Both the position numbers and the translations under genes were made by a program. Positions 11,695 through 40,380 of a stretch of DNA of 64,000 nt are shown piece by piece; position 1 is the first letter of the stretch, and each line of letters begins with the position of its first letter. Origin of the DNA: Nitrososphaera sp. Its GTDB lineage: Archaea > Thermoproteota > Nitrososphaeria > Nitrososphaerales > Nitrososphaeraceae. The stretch spans positions 2,982-66,981 of the forward strand of contig DASYRH010000030.1 of NCBI GenBank assembly GCA_036004585.1. The letters are read 5' to 3'. Below the pieces are notes generated by a model. The model searched no databases and was not told the DNA's origin. It saw only the letters and a program-made list of their open reading frames with translations.

Positions 11695-12648
11695 TTAGGC
11701 CGTGCCGTAGAGCCTGTAGATCCCACCTGTCTGGTCGCTCACATAGCTCCAGACCTCAGGGTTTATCTGCAGCAGCCTGAATGTAGATCTCTGCCGCTCG
11801 TCAAGCAGCTCATGGACCATCTGCCCTATCACTATCTGGTCTGGCTTGGCAAGGGTCGTCATTTTTGCGGCAACATTGATGGTGTATCCTAGTATGTCGT
11901 AGTGGGGCCACCTGAACTGCCTTCCCTCAATTGTTTGCGTATTCCAGCCATACTGGACTACAACGTTTTCGCCGATGTCGATTCCGACTCGGACGCTCAT
12001 CTCTGGGTAATCGTATTGGTTGAGGATCGGATTGATTCCTTCCCTGATTATCCTTATCATTGACCGCGCGCAGTTGACTGCATTGATGCTGGGCAGGTAC
12101 TGGTCACCTTCTGCGACAAAGAACGCGAGGATCGCGTCGCCGACATACTTGAGCACATGGCCTCCGTATGCGGCTATGGTCAGGGACATTTCCTGAGTAA
12201 AGGCCTGAACCAGAGTGGCGAGCCTGTCAACTGGCAGCATCATCGACATCTTTGTCGAGCCGACGAGATCTATGTTGAGTATGACCAGCCTGACCTTGGA
12301 TCTTGCCAGCTTTGCAAGGATGTTGTGCGCTTCCTCAGTGGACAAGTCAAATTTGGTCCCCACCTTGAGCGCCTTCCACATCCTTTGCTGCGCCATGCTG
12401 ATTGCCTTATCCAGGTCGACCACCGCATCAAGGTAAAATGACGCAAGCGAGGACATCTCCGATTCCTGCCGGGCGGCCTTGCTTTCCTGCTCTTCCCTTG
12501 CTGCCTGTTGAATAACTTGATCGATCTCTTTTTGGTCTAAATCCATCTGAACCGCGATTATCTCGGGCGGGATACCAGAGTAATGCAGGTTGAGGATGGT
12601 CTGCCTTTGGTAATCGGTAGGACCTGGGGCTCCCCCTGCTTCAGACAT
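11695..12648 (-). CDS. class III adenylate/guanylate cyclase with N-terminal HTH-like region
   Basis: IDLVGST, LKYVGDAILAFF, RVGIDIG and DILGYTINVAAK motifs. Confidence 0.88.
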   Translation of the reverse strand: MSEAGGAPGPTDYQRQTILNLHYSGIPPEIIAVQMDLDQKEIDQVIQQAAREEQESKAARQESEMSSLASFYLDAVVDLDKAISMAQQRMWKALKVGTKFDLSTEEAHNILAKLARSKVRLVILNIDLVGSTKMSMMLPVDRLATLVQAFTQEMSLTIAAYGGHVLKYVGDAILAFFVAEGDQYLPSINAVNCARSMIRIIREGINPILNQYDYPEMSVRVGIDIGENVVVQYGWNTQTIEGRQFRWPHYDILGYTINVAAKMTTLAKPDQIVIGQMVHELLDERQRSTFRLLQINPEVWSYVSDQTGGIYRLYGTA

Positions 12649-12761
12649 GCCTTGACAGATCACTATCAGGTGACTATTTCTGCTTTAAGGTAAGCACAAC
12701 AAGTGGAGGCAGCCTGCCACTGCGGTTAATAACAAGCGCAGCCATATTAGATGTGGGAACT

Positions 12762-12944
12762 ATGGCTAGCAAGAATCAAGAAGAGGGGAAAGTGCTGCTG
12801 ACGCTTCCAAACATCAAGTACTTGGCGGAGGGTCTTGATGCTTTGTTAATGACTGACCTTGACGGCGAAAAGAGAGCAAAGGTGATCCAATTGCGAAATG
12901 ACCTGTTGTCACATATCAACAGCATCTTTACTGACTATTCGTAA
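12762..12944 (+). CDS. small hypothetical protein
   Basis: 60-aa helical ORF with protein-like composition filling the gap between two minus-strand genes. Confidence 0.45.
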   Translation: MASKNQEEGKVLLTLPNIKYLAEGLDALLMTDLDGEKRAKVIQLRNDLLSHINSIFTDYS

Positions 12945-13308
12945 TCGCCGCACGTACTTTTGTGATAACTTCGTTTATCGAGAGTGGCTCTTTCTTTATC
13001 ACGTCTTTTCTGTCAAGCGATCCCATCAGTCGCAGTTCTTGGGTTGATGGCCGAAGTAAGAACATGAAGGTGATCTGTCTATCGCATGTGTATCTGATCT
13101 CACGGTAAAGGTCGATGCCTGTCATGCCCCTCATCACAAGGTCAGTGATTACCAAGGAATAATCTGTATGTGTAGCGTAGACCAAGGCTTCCTTAGGGTC
13201 CGTAGTATGGTCCACCGTATAGCCGTCTGCTCGTAGGTACGTCTTCATCAGGCTGGCCGTGCTATACTTCTGGTCAACAAGAAGGATCGAGTCGCTCAAC
13301 TCTCTCAT
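12928..13308 (-). CDS. single-domain response regulator receiver (atypical)
   Basis: ILLVD, ITDLVMRGMTG and IKKEP; the usual conserved Thr/Ser position is replaced. Confidence 0.85.
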   Translation of the reverse strand: MRELSDSILLVDQKYSTASLMKTYLRADGYTVDHTTDPKEALVYATHTDYSLVITDLVMRGMTGIDLYREIRYTCDRQITFMFLLRPSTQELRLMGSLDRKDVIKKEPLSINEVITKVRAAITNSQ

Positions 13309-13766: not shown

Positions 13767-15293
13767 ATGATGTCCGGATCAAAACCGGCTCTGTCAGCGT
13801 TGGCTCTACAGAATGAACTCTTTAATGCACTGTCCTATGCGACTAGCAACAGGTTTCAGATTCATCCCGACGCATTCGCAATGCTCAGAGGCCTCGACGA
13901 TGACATTCTGAGGATTGTGCAGGAAATAGTCAAGCTGAAAAAAACAGGCAAAAATTCGGTAATCATGATCGAAGATATCAAGAGCTTTCTCAATCCAGGG
14001 AGGGCCCATGAGCAAGAAGCATCTACTGAGCAAAGCTGCAATGTCATCATGGATCCAACCCCAAATGTCGCGACAGGTGAGGGTGTGGAGGGCTATGCTG
14101 CGCTATTTCACAGCAGATTTGAAAAGACAATGAAAATACTCTCCCAGCGGCCCGATAGCAAGCGAATCTCCAAGGTTGCATCAGTCAAGCAAAACTCTAG
14201 GAACGGCTCAAGGACACAATCGGAAAGAGGTGAGCGCAGCCAAAACGGTGGTTCTACTACGATCGTTGCCGGGCTATTGATGTCAAAGCGATCAAAGAAG
14301 AATGGTGTAGAACTTGCAGTCGATGACTACACCGGCACGCTGTCGGTGATGGCAACTACGGAAGATGCGAAAAAACAAGCCGCGTCTCTTGCGCTTGATC
14401 AGATGGTCATGCTAGAGCTTGAGAGTGGCAAGGGTGCTCCCGGCTTGACCGTCAAGAGCATAATAGCGCCAGACATTCCAGACCACTTACCAGGCAGGAG
14501 CAGGTCAGAATCCTACGCGGTACTGATCTCTGACTTGCACGTCGGAAGCAAATTTTTTATGCAGACCGAGTTTATGCGCTTTCTTGAATGGCTTTCTTCC
14601 ACTGAAGACGAAATTGTGTGCAAGATAAAGTTCCTTTGTTTTGGAGGCGACTTGATCGACGGGATCGGAATATTTCCAAACCAAGATAAGGAGTTGGTCG
14701 AGCTGAACGCTGTAAAGCAGATGAGCCGGGCTACAGATCTGCTTGCAATGGTCCCAAAACACATCAAGATGTTTGTGATACCGGGGAACCACGACCCTGG
14801 CAGGCGCGCCCTTCCACAACCGTCTATCCCGAGAAGAGATCTTGCGGACAAACTCTATTCGCTAGAGAACTGTGCCATGCTGGGAAATCCAGCTTTTGTA
14901 GAGCTAAACGGCGTCAAAGTTTTGATGTACCATGGGCAGAGCCTTGACGATGTCATTGCATCTACTCCAGGTTTGAGCTATTCCAAGCCGGCAGAGGCGA
15001 TGAAAGTGCTTCTAAAAGCGCGGCACTTGTCTCCAACCTATGGGGAGCGCACGCCCATCGCGCCAGAGCAGGAAGATATGATGGTGATTTCTGAGGTCCC
15101 TGACATTCTTCATTCTGGCCATGTTCATGTAGTCGACATCCAAAATTACCGGGGCACGCTTATTGTTAATTCAGGCGCTTGGCAGGCGCAAACGAAATTC
15201 CAGCAGACAATGGGTGTTACTCCGACGCCAGGCATCGCCGTCGTCGTTAACCTGGCGACTCTCCAGCCATTCCTTCAGGATTTCAATCAATGA
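13767..15293 (+). CDS. polB: DNA polymerase D small subunit DP1 (proofreading exonuclease)
   Basis: OB fold plus calcineurin-like phosphoesterase motifs ISDLHVGS, GGDLIDG, PGNHD, YHG and HSGHVH. Confidence 0.95.
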   Translation: MMSGSKPALSALALQNELFNALSYATSNRFQIHPDAFAMLRGLDDDILRIVQEIVKLKKTGKNSVIMIEDIKSFLNPGRAHEQEASTEQSCNVIMDPTPNVATGEGVEGYAALFHSRFEKTMKILSQRPDSKRISKVASVKQNSRNGSRTQSERGERSQNGGSTTIVAGLLMSKRSKKNGVELAVDDYTGTLSVMATTEDAKKQAASLALDQMVMLELESGKGAPGLTVKSIIAPDIPDHLPGRSRSESYAVLISDLHVGSKFFMQTEFMRFLEWLSSTEDEIVCKIKFLCFGGDLIDGIGIFPNQDKELVELNAVKQMSRATDLLAMVPKHIKMFVIPGNHDPGRRALPQPSIPRRDLADKLYSLENCAMLGNPAFVELNGVKVLMYHGQSLDDVIASTPGLSYSKPAEAMKVLLKARHLSPTYGERTPIAPEQEDMMVISEVPDILHSGHVHVVDIQNYRGTLIVNSGAWQAQTKFQQTMGVTPTPGIAVVVNLATLQPFLQDFNQ

Positions 15294-16500
15294 GTGTAGA
15301 GAATGTGGGATCTTCCTTGAGGGCCTCTCTCAAAGTTGTGAGTGGGATCTTTATTCTGATTTTCTGTGATCTTCCGTAGCGCCCTTGGTTCACCACGTCG
15401 GTTGTGACCAGGCCCAGCAGGTCTAGTTTGCTTATCATCTGGGTGACTCGGCGCTGTGTAAGCGGATCTTGTTCGGCCTGCTTGCAAAATGAAGAATATG
15501 CGTTGTAGACGTCTCCGGTAAAGCCGTCCTTTGATTTTGCAATCGCAATTATTACCAGCTTCATGTGCGCTGGTGCGTTTTTCAAAAGCACATAGGGCGC
15601 ATCTCGTTCTATTTTTTCCTGCGCTGCTCTTACATGTTTTTCATCAACTTTCGGCGCGCTTTCTCTTTCAGCAATCTCTGCTCCGACTCTCAGCAGGTCT
15701 ATTGCTTTTCTTGCGTCGCCATGTTCCCTTCCAGCCATCGCAGAACACAGATTGATAGCAGCCTCGGTGATGGCCCCGTCGGTGAAAGCGATTCTGGATC
15801 TTTCATGCAGTATCTGGCGCAGTTGCTCTATAGTATATGGGTTGAAAACCATTTCCTCCTCGCTAAGGCTGCTGCGAACCCGCGGGTCCAGCTTGTCTTT
15901 GAAGTCTAGGCTGTTTGATATTCCGATAAGTGAGATGAATCCTCCCTTGGCCATCTGCTGGTTTGCTCTTGTGAAACTATAGAGAACGTCGTCGCCGCTC
16001 TTGTCCACCAACGAATCTATTTCGTCGATGACGAGGATAAGGCCAAGTTTTTTCTTTTGAATATATTGTAGAATTCTGCTCATTGCTTCGCCGATTGAAA
16101 GACCGGTGAATGGCACTTGCTTTGTATTGTCTTGTTCTTGGTTTAGTCCAAGTTCCTCAGCGATCTCAAAAAGCACTTTGTACGCAGTGCTTGCACCCTT
16201 TGCATTGACATTAACTGCTTGAACTCCGGATTTCATTTCCTTGGCTTTCTTTGCAAGCCTTTCTACAACTTTCCTTACTACGGCAGTTTTGCCAGTCCCA
16301 GGTTCGCCAAATAGTAACAGGTTTGACGGCCTTGAACTCCTAAACACCGTCGACAGTACTTGGGCAACGGCGTTTTCTTCCTGCTCTCTGAAAGGCAATC
16401 TTTCTGGGACATAATCTATTGTTAAGGCCTGCCGGTTTCTGATGAGCGACTTCCCACTTGCGGCGTTGTTGAAAATGTTGTCGATATCAGAAGAGCTCAA
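15283..16500 (-). CDS. cdc6: Orc1/Cdc6 replication initiator
   Basis: Walker A GEPGTGKT, Walker B IDEID, GDARKAIDLLR and C-terminal wH (GRYGRS). Confidence 0.96.
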   Translation of the reverse strand: MSSSDIDNIFNNAASGKSLIRNRQALTIDYVPERLPFREQEENAVAQVLSTVFRSSRPSNLLLFGEPGTGKTAVVRKVVERLAKKAKEMKSGVQAVNVNAKGASTAYKVLFEIAEELGLNQEQDNTKQVPFTGLSIGEAMSRILQYIQKKKLGLILVIDEIDSLVDKSGDDVLYSFTRANQQMAKGGFISLIGISNSLDFKDKLDPRVRSSLSEEEMVFNPYTIEQLRQILHERSRIAFTDGAITEAAINLCSAMAGREHGDARKAIDLLRVGAEIAERESAPKVDEKHVRAAQEKIERDAPYVLLKNAPAHMKLVIIAIAKSKDGFTGDVYNAYSSFCKQAEQDPLTQRRVTQMISKLDLLGLVTTDVVNQGRYGRSQKIRIKIPLTTLREALKEDPTFSTLID

Positions 16501-16538
16501 GTGCCATATACACCACTAGTTGTAATTTTAACCCGCCG

Positions 16539-16710
16539 CCACCCCTACCTTTCTTATCCAAGAAACAAATTTCTTAACTTTACCTTAACAGGCATGTTAA
16601 CACGTCGCTTTTAACAAGCCAAATCAATTTGTACTCATTATCATATCAAGATAATGATCTTTTGATTTTCAAGCTTAGAGACAGGTCCTGCATAGGAAAG
16701 GTAGGGGTGG
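16539..16710. repeat. perfect 15-bp inverted repeat flanking the AT-rich region
   Basis: CCACCCCTACCTTTC (16539-16553) and GAAAGGTAGGGGTGG (16696-16710); resembles the GAAAC...GGGGT half of the ORB. Confidence 0.8.
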
Positions 16711-16788
16711 GCCCGGATCCAAATAATGCAAGTCGATTGTCTACTGTTAACTATCTAGATCAATTCAATGAAAAACGGCTCAAAAATG

Positions 16789-16809
16789 ACCCCTCTGTTT
16801 CCACTGGAG
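16789..16809 (-). promoter_or_regulatory. origin recognition box (ORB) 1
   Basis: Minus strand reads CTCCAGTGGAAACAGAGGGGT, matching the archaeal ORB consensus TCCAGTGGAAAC plus G-string. Confidence 0.9.
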
Positions 16810-16850
16810 CGTTAAGGTCGATCGTTAACAGTGTTAAGACCCCGATCTAC

Positions 16851-16871
16851 ACCCCTTCGTTTCCACTGGAG
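16851..16871 (-). promoter_or_regulatory. origin recognition box (ORB) 2
   Basis: Minus strand reads CTCCAGTGGAAACGAAGGGGT; direct repeat of ORB1, 62 bp away. Confidence 0.9.
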
Positions 16872-17040
16872 CACCAAAACGGGTGTTTTTTACTAGAAAT
16901 GTGGTTAACAGGAACGGCGAGTTAACGAAAAAAGCTATCGTCTCATGCAGTGTTAACATTAGCTAAGCTGGTTGTTATCACCCTTGACAGAGCTGTTGTT
17001 AAGTGTTAAGCAGTTAACAGGTCAAGCTACCTTTACTAAA

Positions 17041-17490
17041 ATGAGCTCGGGGAAGAAAAAGTTCAAGATAGAGTTAGAGGACGCCGAGGGGAGTAAGTAT
17101 AACATGTCCCTCGAAGGCAACATATCTAAAGACAAGATCCTGAGGATAGTCGAGTTCATGGATCTCCTCAACATAGAGTCCCCGAATGGCCATACAGAGG
17201 CCATCAGACCTGTCTCTGGTTCGGTCGGCGACAGGATATGGAGCCTTGTCGACTCGAAATTCCCTTACGGCAGCTTTACTTCAAGCGATATCCTGGAGCT
17301 ATATGAGGACCAGTATAATGAGCCCATAAAACTGAGCATTGTCTCGACCTATCTCTCCAGGTATTCCGAGCGGGGACGACTGGCAAGAGTCCGCCAAGGA
17401 AAGGAATGGGTATACCATGCCTCTAGAGATTCCGCAGCTCGGATGCCACCTCAGTCTTTTCCCTCAACCTCTCCCGACCAAGGTCAGTGA
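17041..17490 (+). CDS. uncharacterised protein with C-terminal winged-helix domain, divergent from cdc6
   Basis: ATG 17041 (MSSGKKKFKIEL); wHTH-like FTSSDILELYEDQY...LSIVSTYLSRYSERGRLARVRQGKEWVY. Confidence 0.75.
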   Translation: MSSGKKKFKIELEDAEGSKYNMSLEGNISKDKILRIVEFMDLLNIESPNGHTEAIRPVSGSVGDRIWSLVDSKFPYGSFTSSDILELYEDQYNEPIKLSIVSTYLSRYSERGRLARVRQGKEWVYHASRDSAARMPPQSFPSTSPDQGQ

Positions 17491-18052
17491 GGGTATAGTG
17501 AAATGGCTTTTTTGTGCTATCTCTGGCTACAAACTGGGACTCTGTCAGCCTTTTCATCAACCTGGCAGTGTGCTCCCTGGTCCTTCCGATTGCCTGCTGG
17601 ACCTCTCTTGAAGTCCTCGGCCTTTCTGCGAGCATCTTTAGGATATAATCGGTAGTCCCGTTCTGGCCATCCTGCTTCTCTGCATCGGTTGCTGATGTGA
17701 TACGCTCTGTGACAACGGGGGGTTCTGTGATTCGCGCTACGTGATGTTGCGGCGCATGTGATGTCACATCCTGTGATATCACATTGATTCTTGGCGTTTC
17801 TGCCCTCAATTCGATGATATCCAGCTTTGTGCGGAGCTCGGCAATTGCCTTATCGTAGTCATGAAGGCGGCGAGAGTATTCCATTACAACGGCCTCTGTG
17901 ATCGACTCATCAGAGTTGTGACGCTTTCGAGTCAAACCGGCAAACCTGTGATACAACATCACACCGGCCATGCCTGCAAAAAAGGCAAGGCCCGCATACA
18001 TCACATCCTGTGATGTGATAAATGTCACAGCGCCCGATAAATCGAAGGCCAT
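17423..18052 (-). CDS. membrane-anchored coiled-coil + winged-helix protein
   Basis: TM helix VMYAGLAFFAGMAGVMLY followed by RKRH, heptad region (YSRRLHDYDKAIAELRTKLDII), and C-terminal wHTH RTSREVQQAIGRTREHTARLMKRL...PFHYTLTDLG. ATG 18052. Confidence 0.8.
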   Translation of the reverse strand: MAFDLSGAVTFITSQDVMYAGLAFFAGMAGVMLYHRFAGLTRKRHNSDESITEAVVMEYSRRLHDYDKAIAELRTKLDIIELRAETPRINVISQDVTSHAPQHHVARITEPPVVTERITSATDAEKQDGQNGTTDYILKMLAERPRTSREVQQAIGRTREHTARLMKRLTESQFVARDSTKKPFHYTLTDLGRERLREKTEVASELRNL

Positions 18053-18207
18053 ATCACGCGAGTACGTGACATTGCTGTGATATATCACTATAGCATCACA
18101 TTATTTTACAATCTGGACACTCTTTTTATCACTTGTGACATCACAGACATCACGCTTTCTGTGATGTCCGGACGCAAAATATCACGCGTTTCAGGGGCAA
18201 ATATCAC
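17697..18207. repeat. dense array of GTGAY/RTCAC half-sites embedded in coding DNA
   Basis: 28 hand-counted copies of GTGAT/GTGAC/ATCAC/GTCAC in about 510 bp (about 2 expected at uniform base composition), including TGTGATATCACA and TGTGATGTCACA. Confidence 0.8.
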
Positions 18208-18477
18208 GCGCAACTGTTCTCCAAGTTGTCCCAATGCTGCCAGGCTTTGCGGTTCCAGGACGTCCGTTGATTGTAGAAGCACCACGCTGTAAAGGACAGC
18301 CTGAACCTTGTCCTGACACTGCTTCACCTGCCTGAAATACGCGCCCGAAGTCATGTTTGGCAGCCGGCTTGCACCTTGAAGCCTGTTATAGATTATTGAA
18401 ATCTGTTTTGCCGTAAATAAAGAATTTGCAACAAGTTGTGAAAATAGTTGACTAGAATTGAATTGCTTTCCGTCCAT
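18106..18477 (-). CDS. hypothetical protein, weak HTH-like signature
   Basis: ATG 18477 (MDGKQFNS); FTAKQISIIY...TSGAYFRQVKQ resembles a degenerate HTH. Co-oriented with the membrane wHTH gene. Confidence 0.65.
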   Translation of the reverse strand: MDGKQFNSSQLFSQLVANSLFTAKQISIIYNRLQGASRLPNMTSGAYFRQVKQCQDKVQAVLYSVVLLQSTDVLEPQSLAALGQLGEQLRVIFAPETRDILRPDITESVMSVMSQVIKRVSRL

Positions 18478-18567: not shown

Positions 18568-19317
18568 GTGCGGGATCTGGGAAAGGTCGAACAATACCTC
18601 AATAAAGAGATAAAGAAATGGGGCACGATCTGTCTTCCACTTATCGACTCGGAAAATTCGGCAAATGTAGCATTGGTGGCCAAGAAAGTGGAGGGGTTGG
18701 GTGCATCAGCGATTCTGGTAGGTGGGTCGTCTGCCATCGATCAGATAGAGCTCGCCAAGGTTGTGACGGAGATAAAATCACATGTCACAGTCCCTGTGAT
18801 ATTATTCCCAGGCAATGTCACAGGCGTATCACCAAAGGCAGACGCAATTCTTTTTAGCTCGCTTTTGAATTCCGAGAACCCATACTTTATCACCGAAGCG
18901 CAAGCGCTTGGCGCCGTGGCCGTCAAAAAGTATGGAATCGAACCGCTGCCGACGGCCTACATTATTGTGGGAGAAGGAACAGCTGCCTGGTTTGTAGGAA
19001 GAGCAAGGGGCATACCTTTTCACAAACCAAACATCGCTGTGATGTATTCCCTGGCTGCACAGTACATGGGGATGAGATTTGTGTACCTGGAAGCAGGGTC
19101 GGGCGCTACTCAAAATGTTCCCGCAGAGATGGTAGCGGCCGTGAGAAAGCACTACGAGGGCACGCTAATCGTCGGGGGCGGGATACGGACTGCAGAAACT
19201 GCCGGCAACATAGCAACCGCAGGGGCCGACATCATAGTCATCGGAACAATGATCGAGAAGGACGGCAACTGGCAGGAAAACTTTTCTTCAGTAGTCAAAG
19301 CTATTCGGTCGCGATGA
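18568..19317 (+). CDS. geranylgeranylglyceryl phosphate synthase
   Basis: LIDSE, ILVGGS, ILFPG, YLEAGSGA and IVGGGIR motifs. Confidence 0.93.
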   Translation: MRDLGKVEQYLNKEIKKWGTICLPLIDSENSANVALVAKKVEGLGASAILVGGSSAIDQIELAKVVTEIKSHVTVPVILFPGNVTGVSPKADAILFSSLLNSENPYFITEAQALGAVAVKKYGIEPLPTAYIIVGEGTAAWFVGRARGIPFHKPNIAVMYSLAAQYMGMRFVYLEAGSGATQNVPAEMVAAVRKHYEGTLIVGGGIRTAETAGNIATAGADIIVIGTMIEKDGNWQENFSSVVKAIRSR

Positions 19318-19321
19318 ATCT

Positions 19322-22300
19322 ATGATGCTCGACGAAGCCGAGGTCCGACTCAAAGACATCCGGATGCCGGCTTATTACAAGAGTTATCATCATCAGATCC
19401 TAGCCAGCGTCTATCAATATTACCAGCACGCACTAAAAGCGCGCCGCCGCGGAATCGATGCAGCTGACATTGTCGAGCCAAAGATAGCGTATGACTTGGC
19501 AGACAGAGTTGCAAAGATGCACGAGATCGACATTGCTGAAAGATTGAGGGGATTGCTATCACAGACTACCAAGGAAAAGGCCGCCTTGAAAATAGCCGAA
19601 GAGATTGCCGCGGGCGATTACGGTTCGGGGGACCTCAGAACGCGCCTGGACAACGCTGTGAGAGTATCGCTTGCTGTTGTCACAGAGGGAGTGACTGTGG
19701 CTCCTCTACAGGGGATCTCTGACGTCACGATAAAAAACAACAGCGACGGGAGCCAGTACCTATCTGTTTCCTTTGCCGGCCCAATTCGGTCTGCAGGAGG
19801 AACAGAGGCGGCATTGACCATGTTGATAGCTGATCACGCGAGAAAAGTCGCCGGCCTTGCAAGCTACAAAGCAAATTCGTTTGACGACGAAACGGGAAGG
19901 TTTGTCGAAGAGTTGAGGATATACGAAAGAGAAGTGATGGGCTTTCAGTTCAAGGTACTTGACGAAGATGTTGTAAGGTGCATAGCCAGCCTCCCAGTCG
20001 AACTTGATGGCGTAGACACAGACCCGGTCGAAGTCGTTGGTCACAAGGGGATGAGAAGAATTGCGACTGACAGGGTCAGGGGAGGCGCTCTGAGAGTGAT
20101 GAATGACGGTTTGATCGGCCGCAGCCGCAAGTTGTTGAAACTGGTTGAGACGCTAAAGCTCGATGGGTGGGAGTGGCTCAAAGAACTCAAGGGCGCAATC
20201 CAAACAGGCGACGATGACGCCGCCCATCACAGGATGTCCGAAGTTATCACCGGGAGGCCAGTCCTTTCGATGGCCAAAAAGACAGGAGGTTTTAGGCTTC
20301 GATATGGACGGTGCTGCAATACCGGATTTGCAACAGTTGGAATTCATCCAGCAGTACCGGCTTTGCTCAACTACGCAATTGTCGCAGGCACACAAATCAA
20401 GATGGATATCCCCGGAAAGGCATCTACCATCGCACTAGTTGACACAATAGAGCCTCCTGTTGTCAGGTTAGACGACGGCAGGGTATTGTGCATCAAGACT
20501 GTGCAAGAGGCAGAAAAAATCCGGAAACACGTCAGCAAGATCCTGTACCTTGGCGACATGCTCATCAGCTATGGAGATTTCCTTGAGAATAATGCCCAGT
20601 TGCCTCCGGCAAGCTACGTCGAAGAGATATGGGCGCTCCAGCTGCGCTCGAAATTGGTTTTGGCCACTGACCTCACGAATAGAGACAGGCTGGCCGAGCT
20701 GACAGAAAATCCCATCACCGCTACTCCGACACTTGAAGAGGCATTTGAAATATCCAGAAACTTTGGTATTCCACTTCATCCCCGGTACTCGTTTTATTGG
20801 GATGCAATCACACTTTCTGATGCGTTTTATCTGAAGGAAAAATTTTCGACGGGACTTGCGTTGGACTCCCGACTCAAAGACATCCTAGAGAAACTTGGCG
20901 TAGAGCATTCCATTGCTGGATCAGAGATCAAAATTGAAGGCAGTGCTCACGCAATTTTGCATAGAATGCTGGTCGGGCCGGCTCCGTTGGAATGCAAGGA
21001 TCCTTTGGACCTAGTTGCAAAGATTTGCGGTGTTGCAATTGCGCCGAAATTCATGTCAACTATAGCCGTGCGGGTCGGCAGACCGGAAAAAGCAGCTGAG
21101 CGCAAGATGAAGCCGCCGGTGCACTCGCTCTTTCCCGTTGGGGCCAAAGGGGGCGCGACGCGCGACATTCTGAAGGCAAGCAAAGAGCCTTCATTTTATG
21201 CAGAAATCGCGAATAGGTATTGCGTCGCGTGCAAGATGCCATCTGTTGGAACACACTGTGGCATTTGCTCCTCTCCAACATTGCTGCGGAACCTGTGCGT
21301 CGTTTGCCGGGACGAGTTAGAGGAAGACCAGAAATGTCCGCGCTGCGGCAAGGACGGTCGGACGTGGTCTTCTGTCAACTATCCGCTCAAAATGGCCCTT
21401 GAAAGAGCAAAGAAAAAACTCGGCTACGGGCCTGTGGAGCCCTTCAAAGGCGTCAAATATCTCATGAGCAGGCATAGGTCAGCCGAACCACTTGAAAAAG
21501 GGATACTCAGGCAGAGGCATGGCCTGTACACTTTCAAGGATGGCACCATCAGGTTCGATGCCACAAATGAGCCGCTCACTCACTTCAAGCCATCATGGCT
21601 GGATATTTCAATAGCCAAGTTGAAGGAGCTGGGGTACGGCCGGGACTACCAGGGAAAAGAGCTCTTATCGTCGGATCAATTGGTCGAACTGATGATGCAG
21701 GACGTAATCATTCCAAGAGATTCTGCAAAACATCTTTTGAATGCAGCAAAATTTATCGACGAAGAACTCGAAAAGCTCTACGGGCTTGAGCCGTTCTATA
21801 ATGTAAATTCGATTGGCGACCTTGTCGGGCATCTGGTAGTCGGCCTTGCGCCCCACACATCAGTCGGCATCATGGGAAGGATAATCGGATTTACCGATTC
21901 ACAGGTGTGTCTTGCTTCGCCGGTTTGGCATTCGGCCAAGCGCAGGGACTGCGACGGCGACGCGGATTCCATAATGCTCCTGATGGACGCATTTCTCAAC
22001 TTTTCCTCCGATTTCCTCCCTGACAAAATTGGAGGGCTCATGGATGCGCCGCTGCTGATACAGCCAATCGTGCTTCCACACGAGGTCCAGCGGCAGGCTC
22101 ACAACGTAGACATTGCAAGCTCATACCCGCTTGAATTCTATGAAGCGACATGGAAGCAGGCAAAGGCCGGTGATGTAGCAGGATTGATAGAGACAATCAA
22201 GAATAGGATTGGCGAGCAGAACCAGTTCTTTGGCTACGGATTTACACACATGACCGACTCGCTTACTACGAAGGAGCAGCGGAGTGCCTATTCGACGCTC

Positions 22301-22708
22301 AATACAATGGAGGAGAAACTAAAGATGCAGTTCGACACTGCAAAATTGATAAACGCAGTAGACGCCGACGAGGTCGCTGCAATGGTACTCACTACCCACA
22401 TCCTTCCGGATATCATGGGGAACATGCGATCCTACTCGTCACAGACACTTCGCTGCACTTCATGCGGCGCCAAGTTCCGCAGGATGCCTCTCGTTGGCAA
22501 GTGTTCTGAATGCGGAAGCGAGTTGATACAAACCGTGACCCGAGGCGCAGTAGAAAAATATCTTGGAATCGCAACTGGAATGTGCGCAGAATACAGGATA
22601 AACGAATATCTCAAGAGCAGGGTGGACTCGCTATCGATGGAATTGAAGCTAATTTTCAAGGAAGAGAAAAAGACCCAGTCCAGCATGATGGAATTCATGG
22701 AAAAGTAA
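19322..22708 (+). CDS. polC: DNA polymerase D large subunit DP2
   Basis: FAGPIRSAGGT, GFRLRYGR, DGTIRFDATN, catalytic RRDCDGDADS and C-terminal Zn finger; no intein. Confidence 0.97.
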   Translation: MMLDEAEVRLKDIRMPAYYKSYHHQILASVYQYYQHALKARRRGIDAADIVEPKIAYDLADRVAKMHEIDIAERLRGLLSQTTKEKAALKIAEEIAAGDYGSGDLRTRLDNAVRVSLAVVTEGVTVAPLQGISDVTIKNNSDGSQYLSVSFAGPIRSAGGTEAALTMLIADHARKVAGLASYKANSFDDETGRFVEELRIYEREVMGFQFKVLDEDVVRCIASLPVELDGVDTDPVEVVGHKGMRRIATDRVRGGALRVMNDGLIGRSRKLLKLVETLKLDGWEWLKELKGAIQTGDDDAAHHRMSEVITGRPVLSMAKKTGGFRLRYGRCCNTGFATVGIHPAVPALLNYAIVAGTQIKMDIPGKASTIALVDTIEPPVVRLDDGRVLCIKTVQEAEKIRKHVSKILYLGDMLISYGDFLENNAQLPPASYVEEIWALQLRSKLVLATDLTNRDRLAELTENPITATPTLEEAFEISRNFGIPLHPRYSFYWDAITLSDAFYLKEKFSTGLALDSRLKDILEKLGVEHSIAGSEIKIEGSAHAILHRMLVGPAPLECKDPLDLVAKICGVAIAPKFMSTIAVRVGRPEKAAERKMKPPVHSLFPVGAKGGATRDILKASKEPSFYAEIANRYCVACKMPSVGTHCGICSSPTLLRNLCVVCRDELEEDQKCPRCGKDGRTWSSVNYPLKMALERAKKKLGYGPVEPFKGVKYLMSRHRSAEPLEKGILRQRHGLYTFKDGTIRFDATNEPLTHFKPSWLDISIAKLKELGYGRDYQGKELLSSDQLVELMMQDVIIPRDSAKHLLNAAKFIDEELEKLYGLEPFYNVNSIGDLVGHLVVGLAPHTSVGIMGRIIGFTDSQVCLASPVWHSAKRRDCDGDADSIMLLMDAFLNFSSDFLPDKIGGLMDAPLLIQPIVLPHEVQRQAHNVDIASSYPLEFYEATWKQAKAGDVAGLIETIKNRIGEQNQFFGYGFTHMTDSLTTKEQRSAYSTLNTMEEKLKMQFDTAKLINAVDADEVAAMVLTTHILPDIMGNMRSYSSQTLRCTSCGAKFRRMPLVGKCSECGSELIQTVTRGAVEKYLGIATGMCAEYRINEYLKSRVDSLSMELKLIFKEEKKTQSSMMEFMEK

Positions 22709-22768: not shown

Positions 22769-24136
22769 CTACGCTTGGTTTGAAGCAGGAGAAACAGTAG
22801 TTGAGACCGGGCTTTCACCGTCTACAAAGGTTTTGTATATGCTGATGGCGTCTTCTTCGTCTTTTGCACCGACAATAGTCGCTGCTCCACTTGACAGGAA
22901 ACTTACAGACATTCTTCCAGTGTTTACGGCAGTGATTCCCAGATTGCCCCTTGTCTTGACTTGGTAGCCCAGCGACTCGGCGTTTTTGACAATTCCACCA
23001 AGGTTCACCGGAACAGGCTCTGATGGCGTAACGGTCCAGGTTCTCTTGCCTCTGTCTCTTCCACAAAGCTCTTCAATAATGAGCTTCGAAACTGAAAGGC
23101 TGACCTCCTTCCTTGTCGTACCGCATGAAGGGCATTCGTCCTGCTTGAACATCTGAACCCTATCAAATGAAAGCTCGTTGAGGTCGACGTAGAGGAGCTT
23201 GTTGGCAAGCGTAGGCTCTTTGCCCATGATCAGCTTTACTGCCTCTGACACCTGGATGCCGGCTACAAGGTACAGAATTGACGGGTGTACTCCTTCTGTG
23301 CTACACGCCGGCATTTCCTCTTCATTTAACTCGGGGAACATGCAGCGCAGGCACGCAGATTTGTTTGGCAAGATTGTAGACACCGAACCTGTTACTCCAA
23401 GGGCGCCGGCATAGATCAACGGAATATTGTGCTTTATGCACGCATCGTTTAGCGCATACCTCGCGTCAACGCTGTCAAGTGCGTCAATCACAATGTCAAA
23501 GCCCTTGACGATGCTCTCTGCGGTAAACTTTGTTACCGACGTAGGCACAGGCTCGACCTGGACTCCAGGGTTAATTCTGCGCAGCCGCTCTGCCGCCGCT
23601 TCGACCTTTACCTTGCCAATGTCGTCGTCCGTGTAAAGATGCTGCCTGTGCAGGTTGGTAACTTCAATGACATCTCTGTCAACTATGCGCAGGCTTCCTA
23701 TTCCCATTGCTACCAGCTGTGTAATCACGGGGTTGCCGATGCCTCCGGCGCCAACGACGCAGACCTTTGCGTTTCTGATCTTCTCCATGCCCTCAAAGCC
23801 TATTTCCTCAAGCATAAGCTGCCTAGAGTAGCGCTGGATTTCATCACTCGTCAGCTCTGCGCCGCCGGCGACTGCTGGTAGCACGTAAACAGAGTCGCCG
23901 TCCTTCAGCGGAGCTGACAAGCCGCCGCTAAAGCGCATGTTCTTGCCGTTAATGTAGATATTGATAAGCGAACGGGGCTTGCCGTTGTGATCAAAGACCC
24001 TGCGCTTAAAGTCGTCGCCTAACTGATCCGAAATTCTATTAAATGCATCCTGCAAATCGGCAGCTTCGAGTGGGATCTTTTTCTCTCCCTGACCTCTGTT
24101 CAACACTGACGGGATTACAAATTCTACCTTCGCCAA
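22769..24136 (-). CDS. ubiquitin-like (MoaD/ThiS/SAMP) + E1-like (ThiF/MoeB/UbaA) fusion
   Basis: Beta-grasp domain ending PAVAGG (aa 92), then RYSRQ, GAGGIG, CLRC, PACSTEG and CPSC. Confidence 0.9.
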   Translation of the reverse strand: MAKVEFVIPSVLNRGQGEKKIPLEAADLQDAFNRISDQLGDDFKRRVFDHNGKPRSLINIYINGKNMRFSGGLSAPLKDGDSVYVLPAVAGGAELTSDEIQRYSRQLMLEEIGFEGMEKIRNAKVCVVGAGGIGNPVITQLVAMGIGSLRIVDRDVIEVTNLHRQHLYTDDDIGKVKVEAAAERLRRINPGVQVEPVPTSVTKFTAESIVKGFDIVIDALDSVDARYALNDACIKHNIPLIYAGALGVTGSVSTILPNKSACLRCMFPELNEEEMPACSTEGVHPSILYLVAGIQVSEAVKLIMGKEPTLANKLLYVDLNELSFDRVQMFKQDECPSCGTTRKEVSLSVSKLIIEELCGRDRGKRTWTVTPSEPVPVNLGGIVKNAESLGYQVKTRGNLGITAVNTGRMSVSFLSSGAATIVGAKDEEDAISIYKTFVDGESPVSTTVSPASNQA

Positions 24137-40014: not shown

Positions 40015-40380
40015 ATGGAAACCAAGATCCCTGTTATTCAAGAGTGCGATTTCAGCGGGTATGATGCTTCTTCGCTCATGGCTGAGACTGCCAAGCTACG
40101 GAAGATAATCACAAAAAGGGGAACACTTGAGATTCTTATTCCGTTGTGCTGTACTACAAACCCAGTTAGACATCGACAGTTTCGCCAAACTTTGAAGGGC
40201 ATCAGCAGCAAAACGCTGGCCAGTCGTCTCAAAGAGCTGGAGAAATCTGGCATATTGGAAAGACGGGCGTATAACGAGATCCCGCCACGCGTAGAATATA
40301 CGATGACAGCCAAAGGCCAGGAATTGGTCGAGTCTGTAATGAGCCTGTTCCAGTGGATGCGCAAGTGGTCAAGCAATTAG
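40015..40380 (+). CDS. HxlR-family winged-helix transcriptional regulator
   Basis: GISSKTLASRLKELEKSGILER...PPRVEYTMTAKG; divergent from arsM. Confidence 0.9.
   Translation: METKIPVIQECDFSGYDASSLMAETAKLRKIITKRGTLEILIPLCCTTNPVRHRQFRQTLKGISSKTLASRLKELEKSGILERRAYNEIPPRVEYTMTAKGQELVESVMSLFQWMRKWSSN

What the first reader, a model, noticed from the sequence alone, without database searches (positions are those of the whole stretch)
17041..18477. Candidate origin-tethering/segregation module: three putative DNA-binding genes beside oriC, one membrane-anchored
Seen: immediately right of oriC are (i) a wHTH protein divergent from cdc6, (ii) a bitopic protein with TM helix, positive-inside RKRH, coiled coil, linker and C-terminal wHTH, whose 3' end overlaps (i) by 68 bp, and (iii) a small HTH-like protein co-oriented with (ii). 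All three sit inside the DP1-cdc6-GGGPS-DP2 replication cluster. Known: chromosome segregation in Thaumarchaeota is unexplained, and no SegAB or ParAB genes are in this window. Inference: the membrane wHTH could anchor the origin region to the membrane through the adjacent motif array, with the other two proteins as partners. This is my best candidate for an undescribed system here.
Basis: inference. Interest (0 to 1): 0.82.

Follow-up and report, generated by a model that had tools for sequence, protein, structure and literature searches.

The report
Conserved origin-flanking DNA-binding gene trio
Beside the replication origin of a soil ammonia-oxidising archaeon sit three conserved, uncharacterised genes (two clearly DNA-binding, one of them anchored in the membrane) and two conserved arrays of 5-base motifs; they look like self-regulating regulators that would also hold origin-near DNA at the membrane, but a role in chromosome segregation is not shown.

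Summary
g1 is 17041-17490 (+). g2 is 17423-18052 (-), and its true start is the ATG at 18052. g3 is 18106-18477 (-). They lie between an ORB-bearing oriC next to cdc6 and the GGGPS and DP2 genes. The order DP2-GGGPS-g3-g2-g1-oriC-Cdc6-DP1 recurs in 79 genome loci, including deep Nitrososphaeria lineages.

g1 is a soluble protein with a beta-beta-alpha domain and a winged helix (wHTH). g2 has a short acidic N-out tail, one membrane helix, a K/R-rich flank, four coiled-coil heptads, a linker and a C-terminal wHTH. g3 is helical, and no tool supports an HTH in it.

Two pentamer arrays are conserved. TTAAC/GTTAAC fills oriC and overlaps the g1 promoter. GTGAT forms three clusters: over the g2 TATA box and start codon, inside the g2 linker coding region, and inside the GGGPS coding region. 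Codon choice is selected to keep the GTGAT sites.

The best reading is two self-regulating DNA-binding units. The membrane-bound one forms loop-type operator clusters that pin DNA 0.6-2 kb from the ORBs to the membrane. The segregation idea stays untested: there is no ATPase partner, g3-g2 track GGGPS more tightly than oriC, and one lineage has them away from cdc6. I found no published description.

The parts
15283..16500 (-). Orc1/Cdc6 initiator gene (405 aa)
   Evidence: Pfam matches Cdc6_lid (1e-24), Cdc6_C (3e-20) and AAA domains. It lies beside the ORBs in the related loci.
16501..17040 (.). oriC intergenic region. It holds ORB1 (16789-16810), ORB2 (16851-16872), inverted mini-ORBs (16540-16553 and 16694-16708) and an AT-rich candidate unwinding stretch (16564-16685).
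   Evidence: Repeat family D3 and inverted repeat I1. ORB core TTCCAsTGGA occurs 62 bp apart and is conserved in the loci. Conserved blocks appear in the alignment of nine species.
16573..17018 (.). TTAAC pentamer array: 7 GTTAAC sites plus GTTAAG, CTTAAC and TTTAAC variants, spread from the unwinding stretch through the ORBs to position -28..-23 of the g1 ATG.
   Evidence: 7 of the window's 12 GTTAAC sites lie here. There are 22 TTAAC/GTTAA sites against 2.5 expected. Density is 7-15 sites per kb against about 0.1 per kb background across the loci. At least 12 positions are invariant in nine species.
17041..17490 (+). g1: soluble 149-aa protein with an N-terminal beta-beta-alpha domain (residues 6-44), a linker and a wHTH (residues 60-127).
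   Evidence: 505 homologues, all unnamed. AlphaFold2 model. Foldseek returns only ArsR, BlaI, PadR and Fur-type wHTH proteins at E about 3e-3. Deep alignment A5.
17423..18052 (-). g2: bitopic 209-aa membrane protein with an acidic N-out tail, a membrane helix (residues 17-35), RKRH, a four-heptad coiled coil, a variable linker and a C-terminal wHTH with invariant SREHTARLMK.
   Evidence: 547 homologues. 727 representatives at 50% identity in 1.84 billion proteins, nearly all full-length. Alignment A1. Topology statistics. Sub-threshold Pfam wHTH hits.
17697..17782 (.). GTGAT cluster C: 8 GTGAY sites inside the g2 linker coding region (+270..+355 from the g2 ATG), including the palindromes TGTGATGTCACA and TGTGATATCACA.
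   Evidence: Present in 96% of Nitrososphaera loci and in the deep and AT-rich groups. In the g2 coding sequence the motif count is 1.9 times the codon-shuffle expectation.
17898..17962 (.). Four further GTGAY sites in the g2 coding region that encodes the membrane helix and coiled coil.
18000..18207 (.). GTGAT cluster B: 16 GTGAY sites over the first codons of g2, the g2 promoter and the 3' end of g3. One site abuts the ATG (18053-18057) and one overlaps the TATA-like ATATAT (18080-18085).
   Evidence: Invariant columns in 11 species. 75 of 77 loci have at least one site in -60..+5. 100% of Nitrososphaera loci have sites in the -200..-100 and -50..0 bins and 94% in -100..-50.
18053..18105 (-). 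g3-g2 spacer holding the presumed g2 core promoter (TATA-like element at -33..-28 from the ATG; probably a leaderless mRNA).
   Evidence: Read. Conserved TAWATCAC block. The promoter assignment is inferred.
18106..18477 (-). g3: conserved 123-aa all-helical protein of unknown fold, always immediately upstream of g2.
   Evidence: 54 homologues. Deep alignment A4. Homologues also in L076, L077 and L078. No family or fold match.
18568..19317 (+). GGGPS (PcrB family) gene, divergent from g3.
   Evidence: Pfam PcrB, 2e-52. Adjacent to g3-g2 in every locus that covers it.
18763..18832 (.). GTGAT cluster A: 6 GTGAY sites inside the GGGPS coding region (codons for KSHVTVPVILFPGNVTG).
   Evidence: For the same peptide, Nitrososphaera loci carry 3.3 sites per 90 nt and the deep lineages 0.43. 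GGGPS motif count is 1.76 times the codon-shuffle expectation.

Best explanation
The locus holds two self-regulating DNA-binding units that flank an Orc1/Cdc6-ORB origin. They are better treated as two units than as one three-part machine.

Unit 1 is g1, a soluble and probably dimeric wHTH protein. Its promoter TATA region carries a (G)TTAAC site, and the same pentamer is repeated about 20 times through oriC, between and beside the ORBs and in the AT-rich stretch. g1 most likely represses its own promoter. By occupying the array it would also modulate Orc1/Cdc6 binding or unwinding, as an origin accessory regulator.

Unit 2 is g3-g2. g2 is inserted N-out/C-in by a single membrane helix and dimerises through a four-heptad coiled coil just under the membrane. 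It carries two wHTH domains on flexible linkers of about 50 residues. These bind GTGAT pentamers of variable spacing and orientation, which are grouped in three clusters:
- Cluster B covers the g2 TATA box and start codon.
- Cluster C lies about 300 bp downstream in g2's own linker codons.
- Cluster A, found in Nitrososphaeraceae, lies about 700 bp upstream inside GGGPS.

Occupancy represses g2. Looping between clusters probably brackets the divergent GGGPS/g3 promoters. Because the protein has no sensor domain and stays in the membrane, occupancy necessarily holds this DNA, 0.6-2 kb from the ORBs, at the membrane. g3 is an obligate partner of unknown role.

What is shown: the genes, their architecture, the synteny, the arrays, the promoter overlap and the selection on synonymous sites.

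What is inferred: who binds what, the looping, the regulation of GGGPS, and membrane pinning as a consequence.
For: The genes are real and lineage-restricted. The synteny with ORB-cdc6 is conserved.

Both wHTH folds are supported, for g1 and for g2.

N-out/C-in topology and the lack of an extracytoplasmic domain hold in 75 orthologues.

GTGAY density peaks at -200..+400 from the g2 start in every lineage group, in three discrete clusters.

Sites overlap the g2 TATA-like element and ATG and are invariant in 11 species. They are present in 75 of 77 loci.

The motif count is 1.9 to 2.0 times the synonymous-shuffle expectation in g2 and g3 and 1.76 times in GGGPS. The controls are DP1 0.88, DP2 1.17, Cdc6 1.25 and g1 0.53.

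Cluster A depends on codon choice for an identical peptide.

TTAAC is enriched 4- to 9-fold in oriC of all ammonia-oxidiser groups. A site at -28..-23 of the g1 ATG is conserved, with 61 of 64 loci carrying TTAAC within 60 bp upstream.

In the deepest lineages g1 is inverted but still starts next to the ORB. There it carries GTTCAC-GTTCAC in place of GTTAAC, alongside changes in its recognition helix.

No Rfam family matches the region and neither g1 nor g2 has viral relatives.
Against: There is no binding data, so every protein-motif assignment rests on promoter overlap and adjacency.

g2 and g3 are found together in every locus inspected, so g3 or an unlinked factor could equally be the GTGAT binder.

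The TTAAC array persists in the AT-rich Nitrososphaeraceae clade, where no g1 exists within 8 kb on either side. Either g1 has moved elsewhere in those genomes or another protein binds TTAAC.

No GTGAT sites lie in the GGGPS-g3 intergenic promoter itself. Cluster A is missing in several lineages, so regulation of GGGPS is not universal.

g2 could be cleaved and act as a soluble factor.

The RNA evidence is only a few metatranscriptome contigs.
Confidence: 0.45

Rival explanations
1. This is the first reader's model: a dedicated origin-tethering or segregation module. The main job of g2, with g1 and g3 as partners, is to anchor the newly replicated origin region to the membrane so that membrane growth or Cdv-based division partitions sister chromosomes without a ParA-type ATPase. 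The arrays would act as centromere-like sites.
For: The trio stays next to ORB-cdc6 across orders and survives an inversion of g1.

g2 is an integral membrane protein with no sensor domain.

The window holds 28 or more sites. That is many more than a simple operator needs, and they are maintained inside coding sequence by selection.

No ParA or SegA gene is in the window. Archaeal segregation is unresolved according to the review PMC7617429.

N. maritimus has a single mapped origin (PMC4010727).
Against: The GTGAT array is centred on the g2 promoter, not on oriC. It has an operator-plus-auxiliary-operator layout.

g3-g2 and their array persist next to GGGPS in L077, and g2 does so in L074, with no g1, ORB or cdc6 within 8 kb.

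No motor or partner has been identified.

Origin-proximal gene order may simply be slow to rearrange.

Nothing in the sequence distinguishes tethering as a function from tethering as a side effect.
Confidence: 0.2
2. Membrane-lipid homeostasis regulator. g2 uses its membrane helix, which is rich in small residues, to sense a bilayer property. Together with g3 it tunes transcription of GGGPS, the first committed ether-lipid step, and of itself. On this view its position near oriC is incidental.
For: GGGPS-g3-g2 adjacency was not seen broken in any locus that covers it, including L074 and L077 where oriC is elsewhere.

Cluster A sits inside GGGPS and is kept by codon choice in Nitrososphaeraceae, L076 and L078.

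Clusters A and B bracket the divergent GGGPS/g3 promoters.

The protein has no extracytoplasmic domain, so the membrane itself is the only obvious input.
Against: No sites lie in the GGGPS promoter region itself.

Cluster A is absent in the Nitrosomirales- and Nitrosopumilales-titled loci and in L074 and L077, despite an identical peptide.

I found no precedent for such a regulator in archaea.

No other lipid genes are in the cluster.
Confidence: 0.2
3. Coincidental neighbours. The arrays are bound by other factors: TTAAC by an origin protein encoded elsewhere or by Orc1/Cdc6 itself, and GTGAT by an unlinked regulator. On this view g1, g2 and g3 are ordinary regulators with distant targets, held here only by conserved origin-proximal synteny.
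For: The TTAAC array persists without an adjacent g1. A TTAAC site directly abuts ORB1 in nine species. There is no direct binding evidence.
Against: Each motif overlaps the core promoter of one of the genes in nearly every lineage. The GTGAT array follows g2 when g2 is separated from oriC. The motif upstream of g1 changes together with the g1 recognition helix in the deepest lineages.
Confidence: 0.12

Closest known systems
ToxR / CadC / TcpP-type bitopic membrane one-component regulators (bacteria)
   Same: They are single-pass membrane proteins whose wHTH binds promoter DNA while the protein stays in the membrane. DNA binding then brings the locus and the membrane together (CadC: PMC6320335, listed).
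   Different: These bacterial proteins have an N-terminal OmpR-type wHTH and a large periplasmic sensor. g2 has the opposite polarity: an outside tail of about 11 aa, a C-terminal MarR/TrmB-like wHTH, a coiled coil and no sensor. It is archaeal. There is no sequence relationship.
lac O1/O2/O3 and gal OE/OI auxiliary operators (loop-forming repression)
   Same: A main operator over the promoter is paired with auxiliary operators hundreds of bp away, some inside coding sequence. Clusters B and C here are about 300 bp apart, and A and B about 700 bp apart.
   Different: Here each 'operator' is a cluster of 6-16 pentamers. The presumed binder is membrane-anchored. Looping is inferred, not shown.
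RacA-ram-DivIVA and Noc-NBS (Bacillus subtilis DNA-membrane tethers)
   Same: Sequence-specific DNA-binding proteins with many sites bring chromosomal DNA to the membrane. RacA's sites are enriched near the origin.
   Different: RacA and Noc are peripheral, acting through DivIVA or an amphipathic helix. Noc is a ParB-family protein. Their sites are spread over hundreds of kb. g2 is an integral membrane protein, and its known sites span about 1.2 kb.
SegAB and AspA-ParB-ParA (archaeal partition systems)
   Same: Small site-specific DNA-binding proteins act on repeated or palindromic sites. AspA is a wHTH and appears among the generic Foldseek hits for g1 (rank 39).
   Different: Those systems are defined by a Walker ATPase encoded alongside. 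None is present here. There is no sequence similarity to SegB or AspA beyond the wHTH fold.
Origin-binding transcription factors in bacteria (CtrA in Caulobacter Cori, Spo0A boxes in B. subtilis oriC, SeqA/GATC in E. coli oriC)
   Same: A short motif is repeated many times inside the origin and interleaved with initiator boxes. A second protein binds it to control initiation. This is the model for g1 and TTAAC.
   Different: The domain of life, initiator (Orc1/Cdc6) and protein families all differ. Whether TTAAC is bound by g1, or methylated, is unknown.
Omega (pSM19035) heptad iterons 5'-WATCACW-3'
   Same: Arrays of ATCAC-core repeats in both orientations upstream of promoters serve both autoregulation and centromere function. 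This comparison is from my own knowledge.
   Different: Omega is a ribbon-helix-helix protein, and its heptads are contiguous. The motif resemblance is probably coincidental.
Mga2/Spt23 and SREBP (eukaryotic membrane-tethered lipid regulators)
   Same: A transcription factor is anchored by membrane helices that read a membrane property, and it controls a lipid-synthesis gene.
   Different: Those factors act after proteolytic release and are unrelated in sequence. There is no evidence here for cleavage or for lipid sensing.

Membership tests
Archaeal Orc1/Cdc6-ORB origin (oriC1 type) | Initiator gene orc1/cdc6 immediately adjacent | tested here: met
   Cdc6_lid, Cdc6_C and AAA domains at 15283-16500.
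Archaeal Orc1/Cdc6-ORB origin (oriC1 type) | Two or more ORB repeats, each with a TCCAGTGGAAAC-type dyad plus a G-string | tested here: met
   GCTCCAGTGGAAACrrAGGGGT occurs twice, 62 bp apart, with two inverted mini-ORBs.
Archaeal Orc1/Cdc6-ORB origin (oriC1 type) | AT-rich unwinding element between inverted ORBs, and demonstrated origin firing | not testable with these tools
   An AT-rich stretch at 16564-16685 lies between the inverted mini-ORBs. GC skew is uninformative in 64 kb. Activity would need marker-frequency analysis.
ParABS / SegAB partition system | Walker-type (deviant Walker A) ATPase gene in the module | tested here: not met
   No KGGxGK[ST] motif in any frame of the 64-kb window. 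No such ORF lies between DP1 and DP2.
ParABS / SegAB partition system | Centromere-binding protein acting on adjacent repeated sites | tested here: inconclusive
   Arrays and wHTH proteins are present, but binding is untested and the layout is promoter-centred.
ToxR/CadC-type membrane one-component regulators | Single membrane helix linking a cytoplasmic DNA-binding domain to the membrane | tested here: met
   One hydrophobic 19-mer (mean Kyte-Doolittle score 2.08 over 75 orthologues) with a K/R-rich C-flank.
ToxR/CadC-type membrane one-component regulators | N-terminal OmpR/PhoB-type wHTH and an extracytoplasmic sensor domain | tested here: not met
   The wHTH is C-terminal and matches TrmB, MarR, IclR and HVO_A0261-type models only. 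The outside tail has a median length of 11 aa.
Winged helix-turn-helix superfamily (g1) | Three helices plus a beta-hairpin wing | tested here: met
   AlphaFold2 gives H62-73, H81-92, H98-110 and strands 114-127 with pLDDT above 90. The top Foldseek hits are ArsR/SmtB, BlaI/MecI, PadR and Fur.
Winged helix-turn-helix superfamily (g2 C-terminus) | Match to a curated wHTH family above its threshold | tested here: not met
   The best hit is PF25213 HVO_A0261_N at 24.9 bits against a cut-off of 35. Ten other wHTH families are sub-threshold over the same residues. The precomputed listing tags many homologues with PF25213. The superfamily assignment is likely, but no family membership is established.
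Helix-turn-helix protein (g3) | A recognisable HTH by profile or fold | tested here: not met
   There are no Pfam or NCBIfam hits for 25 orthologues beyond scattered noise. There is no PDB profile hit. The model is a helical bundle with pLDDT 63 and no fold match. My reading of S-x-GAYYRQ-x2-Q-x-R-x-K as sigma-r4-like is only a lead.
Noc/ParB-type DNA-membrane tether | ParB N-terminal domain with HTH, and an amphipathic membrane-targeting helix | tested here: not met
   No ParB-type domain in any of the three proteins. g2 is an integral membrane protein, not a peripheral one.

The most novel reading that the evidence does not exclude
g2 would be the first archaeal integral-membrane origin anchor. 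It would be inserted co-translationally next to its own gene, and its dimers would bind in cis to the roughly 30 GTGAT sites written into its own and its neighbours' coding sequences. This would physically fix the origin region of the single ammonia-oxidiser chromosome to the membrane. g1 on the TTAAC array would couple this to Orc1/Cdc6 loading. The result would be an ATPase-free way to position and partition origins in Cdv-dividing archaea.
Probability: 0.18. Interest if true: 0.85.

Novelty: new variant of a known kind. Interest (0 to 1): 0.6.

Why it matters
Ammonia-oxidising archaea are globally important nitrifiers. How they control replication initiation, position their chromosome or regulate lipid synthesis is essentially unknown.

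This locus offers three lineage-specific proteins and two precisely defined cis-arrays, all directly testable by EMSA, DAP-seq, ChIP and fractionation in cultivable Nitrososphaera or Nitrosopumilus.

It also gives a clear example of transcription-factor site arrays maintained inside coding sequence by synonymous-site selection. One of these arrays lies in the disordered linker of the presumed binder itself.

Finally, it shows a membrane-integral regulator with no sensor domain sitting next to both the origin and the first committed ether-lipid gene. Whichever reading is right (initiation control, membrane tethering or lipid homeostasis), it would be the first such regulator I am aware of in this class.

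Tried and rejected
1. Co-loss of g1 and the GTTAAC array in the AT-rich clade as evidence that g1 binds it. Searches suggested this. I rejected it because the pentamer TTAAC (TGTTAA is the top 6-mer) is still 3- to 4-fold enriched in those origins, although g1 is absent within 8 kb either side.

2. g3 absent while the GTGAT array is present, which would have assigned the array to g2. I rejected it because g3 homologues missed by tblastn exist in L076, L077 and L078.

3. An RNA element explaining the palindromes. There is no Rfam hit at E up to 1.

4. A mobile-element or viral origin for g1 and g2. Neither has relatives in IMG/VR.

5. Solved-structure relatives by profile search. None were found for g1, g2 or g3.

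6. A fold match for g3. None was found.

7. GC skew to confirm the origin. It is uninformative at this scale.

8. The sigma-70 promoter scan. It is irrelevant for an archaeon.

9. Metatranscriptome contigs. Only about 10 short contigs cover the 5' parts of g2 and g1, which is too sparse for transcription start sites or operon structure.

10. Secondary GTTAAC sites at 46857 and 47034. They lie inside a PstS-like gene and are probably chance.

11. The JGI label 'CRP-like cAMP-binding protein' for g2 homologues. No cNMP domain is present.
Full report
**What is in the window**

Between 13.7 and 22.7 kb the window encodes, in order:
- PolD small subunit DP1, 13767-15293 (+).
- Orc1/Cdc6, 15283-16500 (-).
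- A 540-bp intergenic region.
- g1, 17041-17490 (+).
- g2, on the minus strand, ending at 17423.
- g3, 18106-18477 (-).
- GGGPS of the PcrB family, 18568-19317 (+).
- PolD large subunit DP2, 19322-22708 (+).

The convergent g1/g2 overlap is 68 bp (17423-17490). The sequence is near-identical to contigs in soil metagenomes, and its relatives are titled Nitrososphaera.

**The origin**

The intergenic region carries two 22-nt direct repeats, ACCCCTyyGTTTCCACTGGAGC, at 16789 and 16851. Read on the other strand they are classical ORBs: a TCCAGTGGAAAC dyad followed by a G-string.

Two inverted mini-ORB-like elements, CACCCCTACCTTTC and GGAAAGGTAGGGGTG, lie at 16540 and 16694. They flank an AT-rich stretch next to the cdc6 promoter.

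The ORB core recurs 62-63 bp apart at the same place in the related loci. The whole region aligns in blocks across nine species.

GC skew does not help at this scale. Origin activity itself cannot be tested here. A single origin has been mapped in N. maritimus (PMC4010727).

**The three proteins**

g2 has 547 homologues in the 90%-clustered collection. In 1.84 billion 50%-identity representatives it has 727 relatives, 424 of them at E up to 1e-10. Almost all are 170-250 aa and align end to end. It is therefore a compact, lineage-restricted family with one architecture.

Homologues start at MA(F/I)DLS, so the g2 start is the ATG at 18052 (209 aa) rather than the upstream GTG.

Statistics over 75 orthologues:
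- The N-tail has a median length of 11 aa, is acidic and carries 0.16 K/R.
- A 19-residue hydrophobic segment follows, with a mean Kyte-Doolittle score of 2.08.
- The next 15 residues carry 3.8 K/R.

This gives an N-out/C-in topology with no extracytoplasmic domain.

Directly after the positive patch, hydrophobic residues fall at 3-4-3-4 spacing for about four heptads (read). A variable linker follows, then a wHTH whose recognition helix SREHTARLMK is invariant even in the deepest relatives. Pfam gives only sub-threshold wHTH matches, the best being PF25213 at 24.9 bits against a cut-off of 35.

g1 has 505 homologues, all unnamed. AlphaFold2 gives a beta-beta-alpha N-domain (residues 6-44, pLDDT about 68) and a wHTH (residues 60-127, pLDDT above 90). 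Foldseek finds only generic wHTH repressors at E about 3e-3.

g3 has 54 homologues in the word-indexed search, and I found deeper ones by reading the loci. It is all-helical with pLDDT 63 and matches no family or fold. The 'HTH-like' label is unverified.

None of the three has a solved-structure relative by sequence. Neither g1 nor g2 has a viral relative.

**Synteny**

A scan of one genome per species with the g2 alignment returned 540 relatives, of which 79 loci were kept.

The order DP2(-) GGGPS(-) g3(+) g2(+) g1(-) [ORBs] Cdc6(+) DP1(-) holds in essentially every Nitrososphaera locus. Without DP1 and DP2, it also holds in records titled Nitrosomirales, Nitrosopumilales and Nitrososphaerales. 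In those records g2 is only about 30% identical and Cdc6 about 46% identical. The order holds in a Nitrosotenuis record as well.

Three deeper loci (L076, L078, L079) have g1 inverted, so it is co-oriented with cdc6. The ORBs then lie between g2 and g1, and g1 still starts at the origin.

There are two kinds of exception:
- An AT-rich Nitrososphaeraceae clade (L059, L065-L072) has no g1 within 8 kb either side.
- L077 has GGGPS-g3-g2 followed by unrelated genes and V-ATPase subunits, with no g1, ORB or cdc6. L074 similarly has GGGPS and g2 with no g1, ORB or cdc6 detected.

The GGGPS-g3-g2 link was not seen broken in any locus that covers it. The g2-oriC link is broken in one lineage. g1, when present, is always at the origin.

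**The TTAAC array**

Seven of the window's twelve GTTAAC sites lie in 16596-17018. Counting the pentamer on both strands gives 22 sites in the 540-bp origin against 2.5 expected, with 0 of 500 shuffles reaching this count.

Across loci, GTTAAC reaches 7-15 sites per kb in the origin against about 0.1 per kb elsewhere. At least a dozen TTAAC positions are invariant in nine species while their flanks drift, and one of them abuts ORB1.

One site sits at -28..-23 of the g1 ATG in all lineage groups where g1 is divergent from cdc6, and 61 of 64 g1-bearing loci carry TTAAC within 60 bp upstream. That is where a TATA box of a leaderless gene would be.

The deepest lineages have GTTCAC-GTTCAC upstream of g1 instead, alongside a slightly different recognition helix.

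My first impression was that the array disappears together with g1 in the AT-rich clade. That was an artefact of demanding the hexamer. TTAAC is still enriched there, at 9-14 sites against 2.3-3.8 expected. g1 is therefore the candidate binder by position only.

**The GTGAT array**

Fifteen of the window's 51 TGTGAT sites lie in 17696-18165. GTGAY occurs 28 times in 17697-18207, against 1.8 per 500 bp in the rest of the window. Several sites form 12-bp palindromes.

In every lineage group the density peaks at -200..+400 from the g2 start. At 50-bp resolution the Nitrososphaera loci show three discrete clusters:
- Cluster A lies at -800..-700, inside GGGPS. It is present in 92% of loci.
- Cluster B lies at -200..+50, over the g3 3' end, the spacer and the first g2 codons. 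It has about 9 sites, and the bins upstream of the ATG are occupied in 94-100% of loci.
- Cluster C lies at +250..+350, in the g2 linker. It is present in 96% of loci.

Nothing lies in the GGGPS/g3 promoter or in the body of g3.

In cluster B, one site overlaps a TATA-like ATATAT at -33..-28 and another abuts the ATG. Both are invariant or nearly so in 11 species. 75 of 77 loci have a site in -60..+5.

Most sites lie in coding sequence, so I shuffled synonymous codons within each gene. The observed-to-expected ratios are:
- g2: 1.90
- g3: 2.03
- GGGPS: 1.76
- Cdc6: 1.25
- DP2: 1.17
- DP1: 0.88
- g1: 0.53

For the identical GGGPS peptide IPVILFPGNVTG, the count per 90 nt differs by lineage:
- Nitrososphaera loci: 3.3 sites
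- AT-rich clade: 2.9 sites
- Nitrosomirales- and Nitrosopumilales-titled loci: 0.43 sites

The motifs are therefore selected at the DNA level. The 'conserved' S-Q/S-H dipeptides of the g2 linker are simply ATCACA read in frame.

**Interpretation**

Each wHTH gene has one of the two motifs on its own core promoter in nearly all lineages. This is the signature of autoregulation and the best available basis for assigning TTAAC to g1 and GTGAT to g2 (or g3).

The GTGAT layout is a promoter cluster plus auxiliary clusters 300 and 700 bp away inside genes. It resembles loop-forming operator systems such as lac O1/O2 or gal OE/OI more than a centromere.

g2 is membrane-integral and has no sensor. If it binds, this DNA, which lies 0.6-2 kb from the ORBs, is held at the membrane, as shown for CadC in E. 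coli (PMC6320335).

Whether tethering is the purpose is open. Three observations count against a dedicated segregation module:
- The tighter linkage is to GGGPS, not to oriC.
- One lineage has g3-g2 away from oriC.
- No ATPase is present.

The GGGPS link and cluster A raise a serious alternative: a membrane-state regulator of ether-lipid synthesis. TTAAC sites interleaved with the ORBs suggest that g1, or whatever binds them, modulates initiation, like CtrA, Spo0A or SeqA in bacterial origins.

**Literature and novelty**

Searches for these features in ammonia oxidisers and archaea found no description. Reviews state that archaeal segregation is unresolved.

The proteins belong to no curated family above threshold. 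I class this as a new variant of known kinds (membrane-anchored one-component regulator; origin accessory factor). There is a modest chance (about 0.18) that it is a genuine origin-membrane anchor.

**Weak or null evidence**

- Metatranscriptome contigs cover the 5' parts of g2 and g1 and cross the g3-g2 junction, but they are too few to define transcripts.
- No Rfam family matches the region.

Noticed in passing
window 22769-24136 (-): A single 455-aa protein fuses a ThiS/MoaD-type ubiquitin-like domain (ending ...AVAGG) to a ThiF/E1-like domain (Pfam PF02597 and PF00899). It is a Ubl-E1 fusion sitting just after DP2.
   Followed up: partly
window 11695-12663 (-) and 12928-13308 (-): A class III adenylate/guanylate cyclase-domain protein and a stand-alone receiver-domain protein lie just upstream of DP1.
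   Followed up: partly
window 40348-40357: One more ORB-core match (TTCCAGTGGA) lies far from cdc6. It is about what chance allows, and I did not check it for a G-string or partner repeats.
   Followed up: no
window 18106-18351 versus 18106-18477: The window's own gene call for g3 appears to be the 82-aa internal-Met version (P0257, 100% identity over 67% of the query). The 123-aa form is the one conserved across lineages.
   Followed up: yes
L076 7029-7313 and L078 7096-7356: In the deepest lineages an Elf1-like zinc-ribbon gene (PF05129, 1.4e-15 for the L076 protein) sits between GGGPS and g3.
   Followed up: partly
L066 7368-7860: The origin of this AT-rich relative contains a tandemly duplicated unit of about 60 bp. 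Each copy holds an ORB followed by ATATCAC and TTTAACAG, so both pentamer motifs lie directly beside an ORB.
   Followed up: no
L076 8820-8850, L078 and L079 upstream of g1: The g1 promoter carries two GTTCAC direct repeats instead of GTTAAC in the lineages where g1 is inverted. This may be co-variation with the g1 recognition helix.
   Followed up: partly
window 17423-17490, and L001-L056: The convergent 3'-end overlap of g1 and g2 is about 20-70 bp in most Nitrososphaera loci, though a few show no overlap. It is about 10 bp in the deep lineages and absent in Nitrosotenuis L073, which has a 288-bp gap. The overlapping codons encode low-confidence tails, and antisense effects were not examined.
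   Followed up: partly
window 46857 and 47034: Two of the five GTTAAC sites outside the origin lie 177 bp apart inside a PstS-like phosphate-binding protein gene. This is probably chance.
   Followed up: partly
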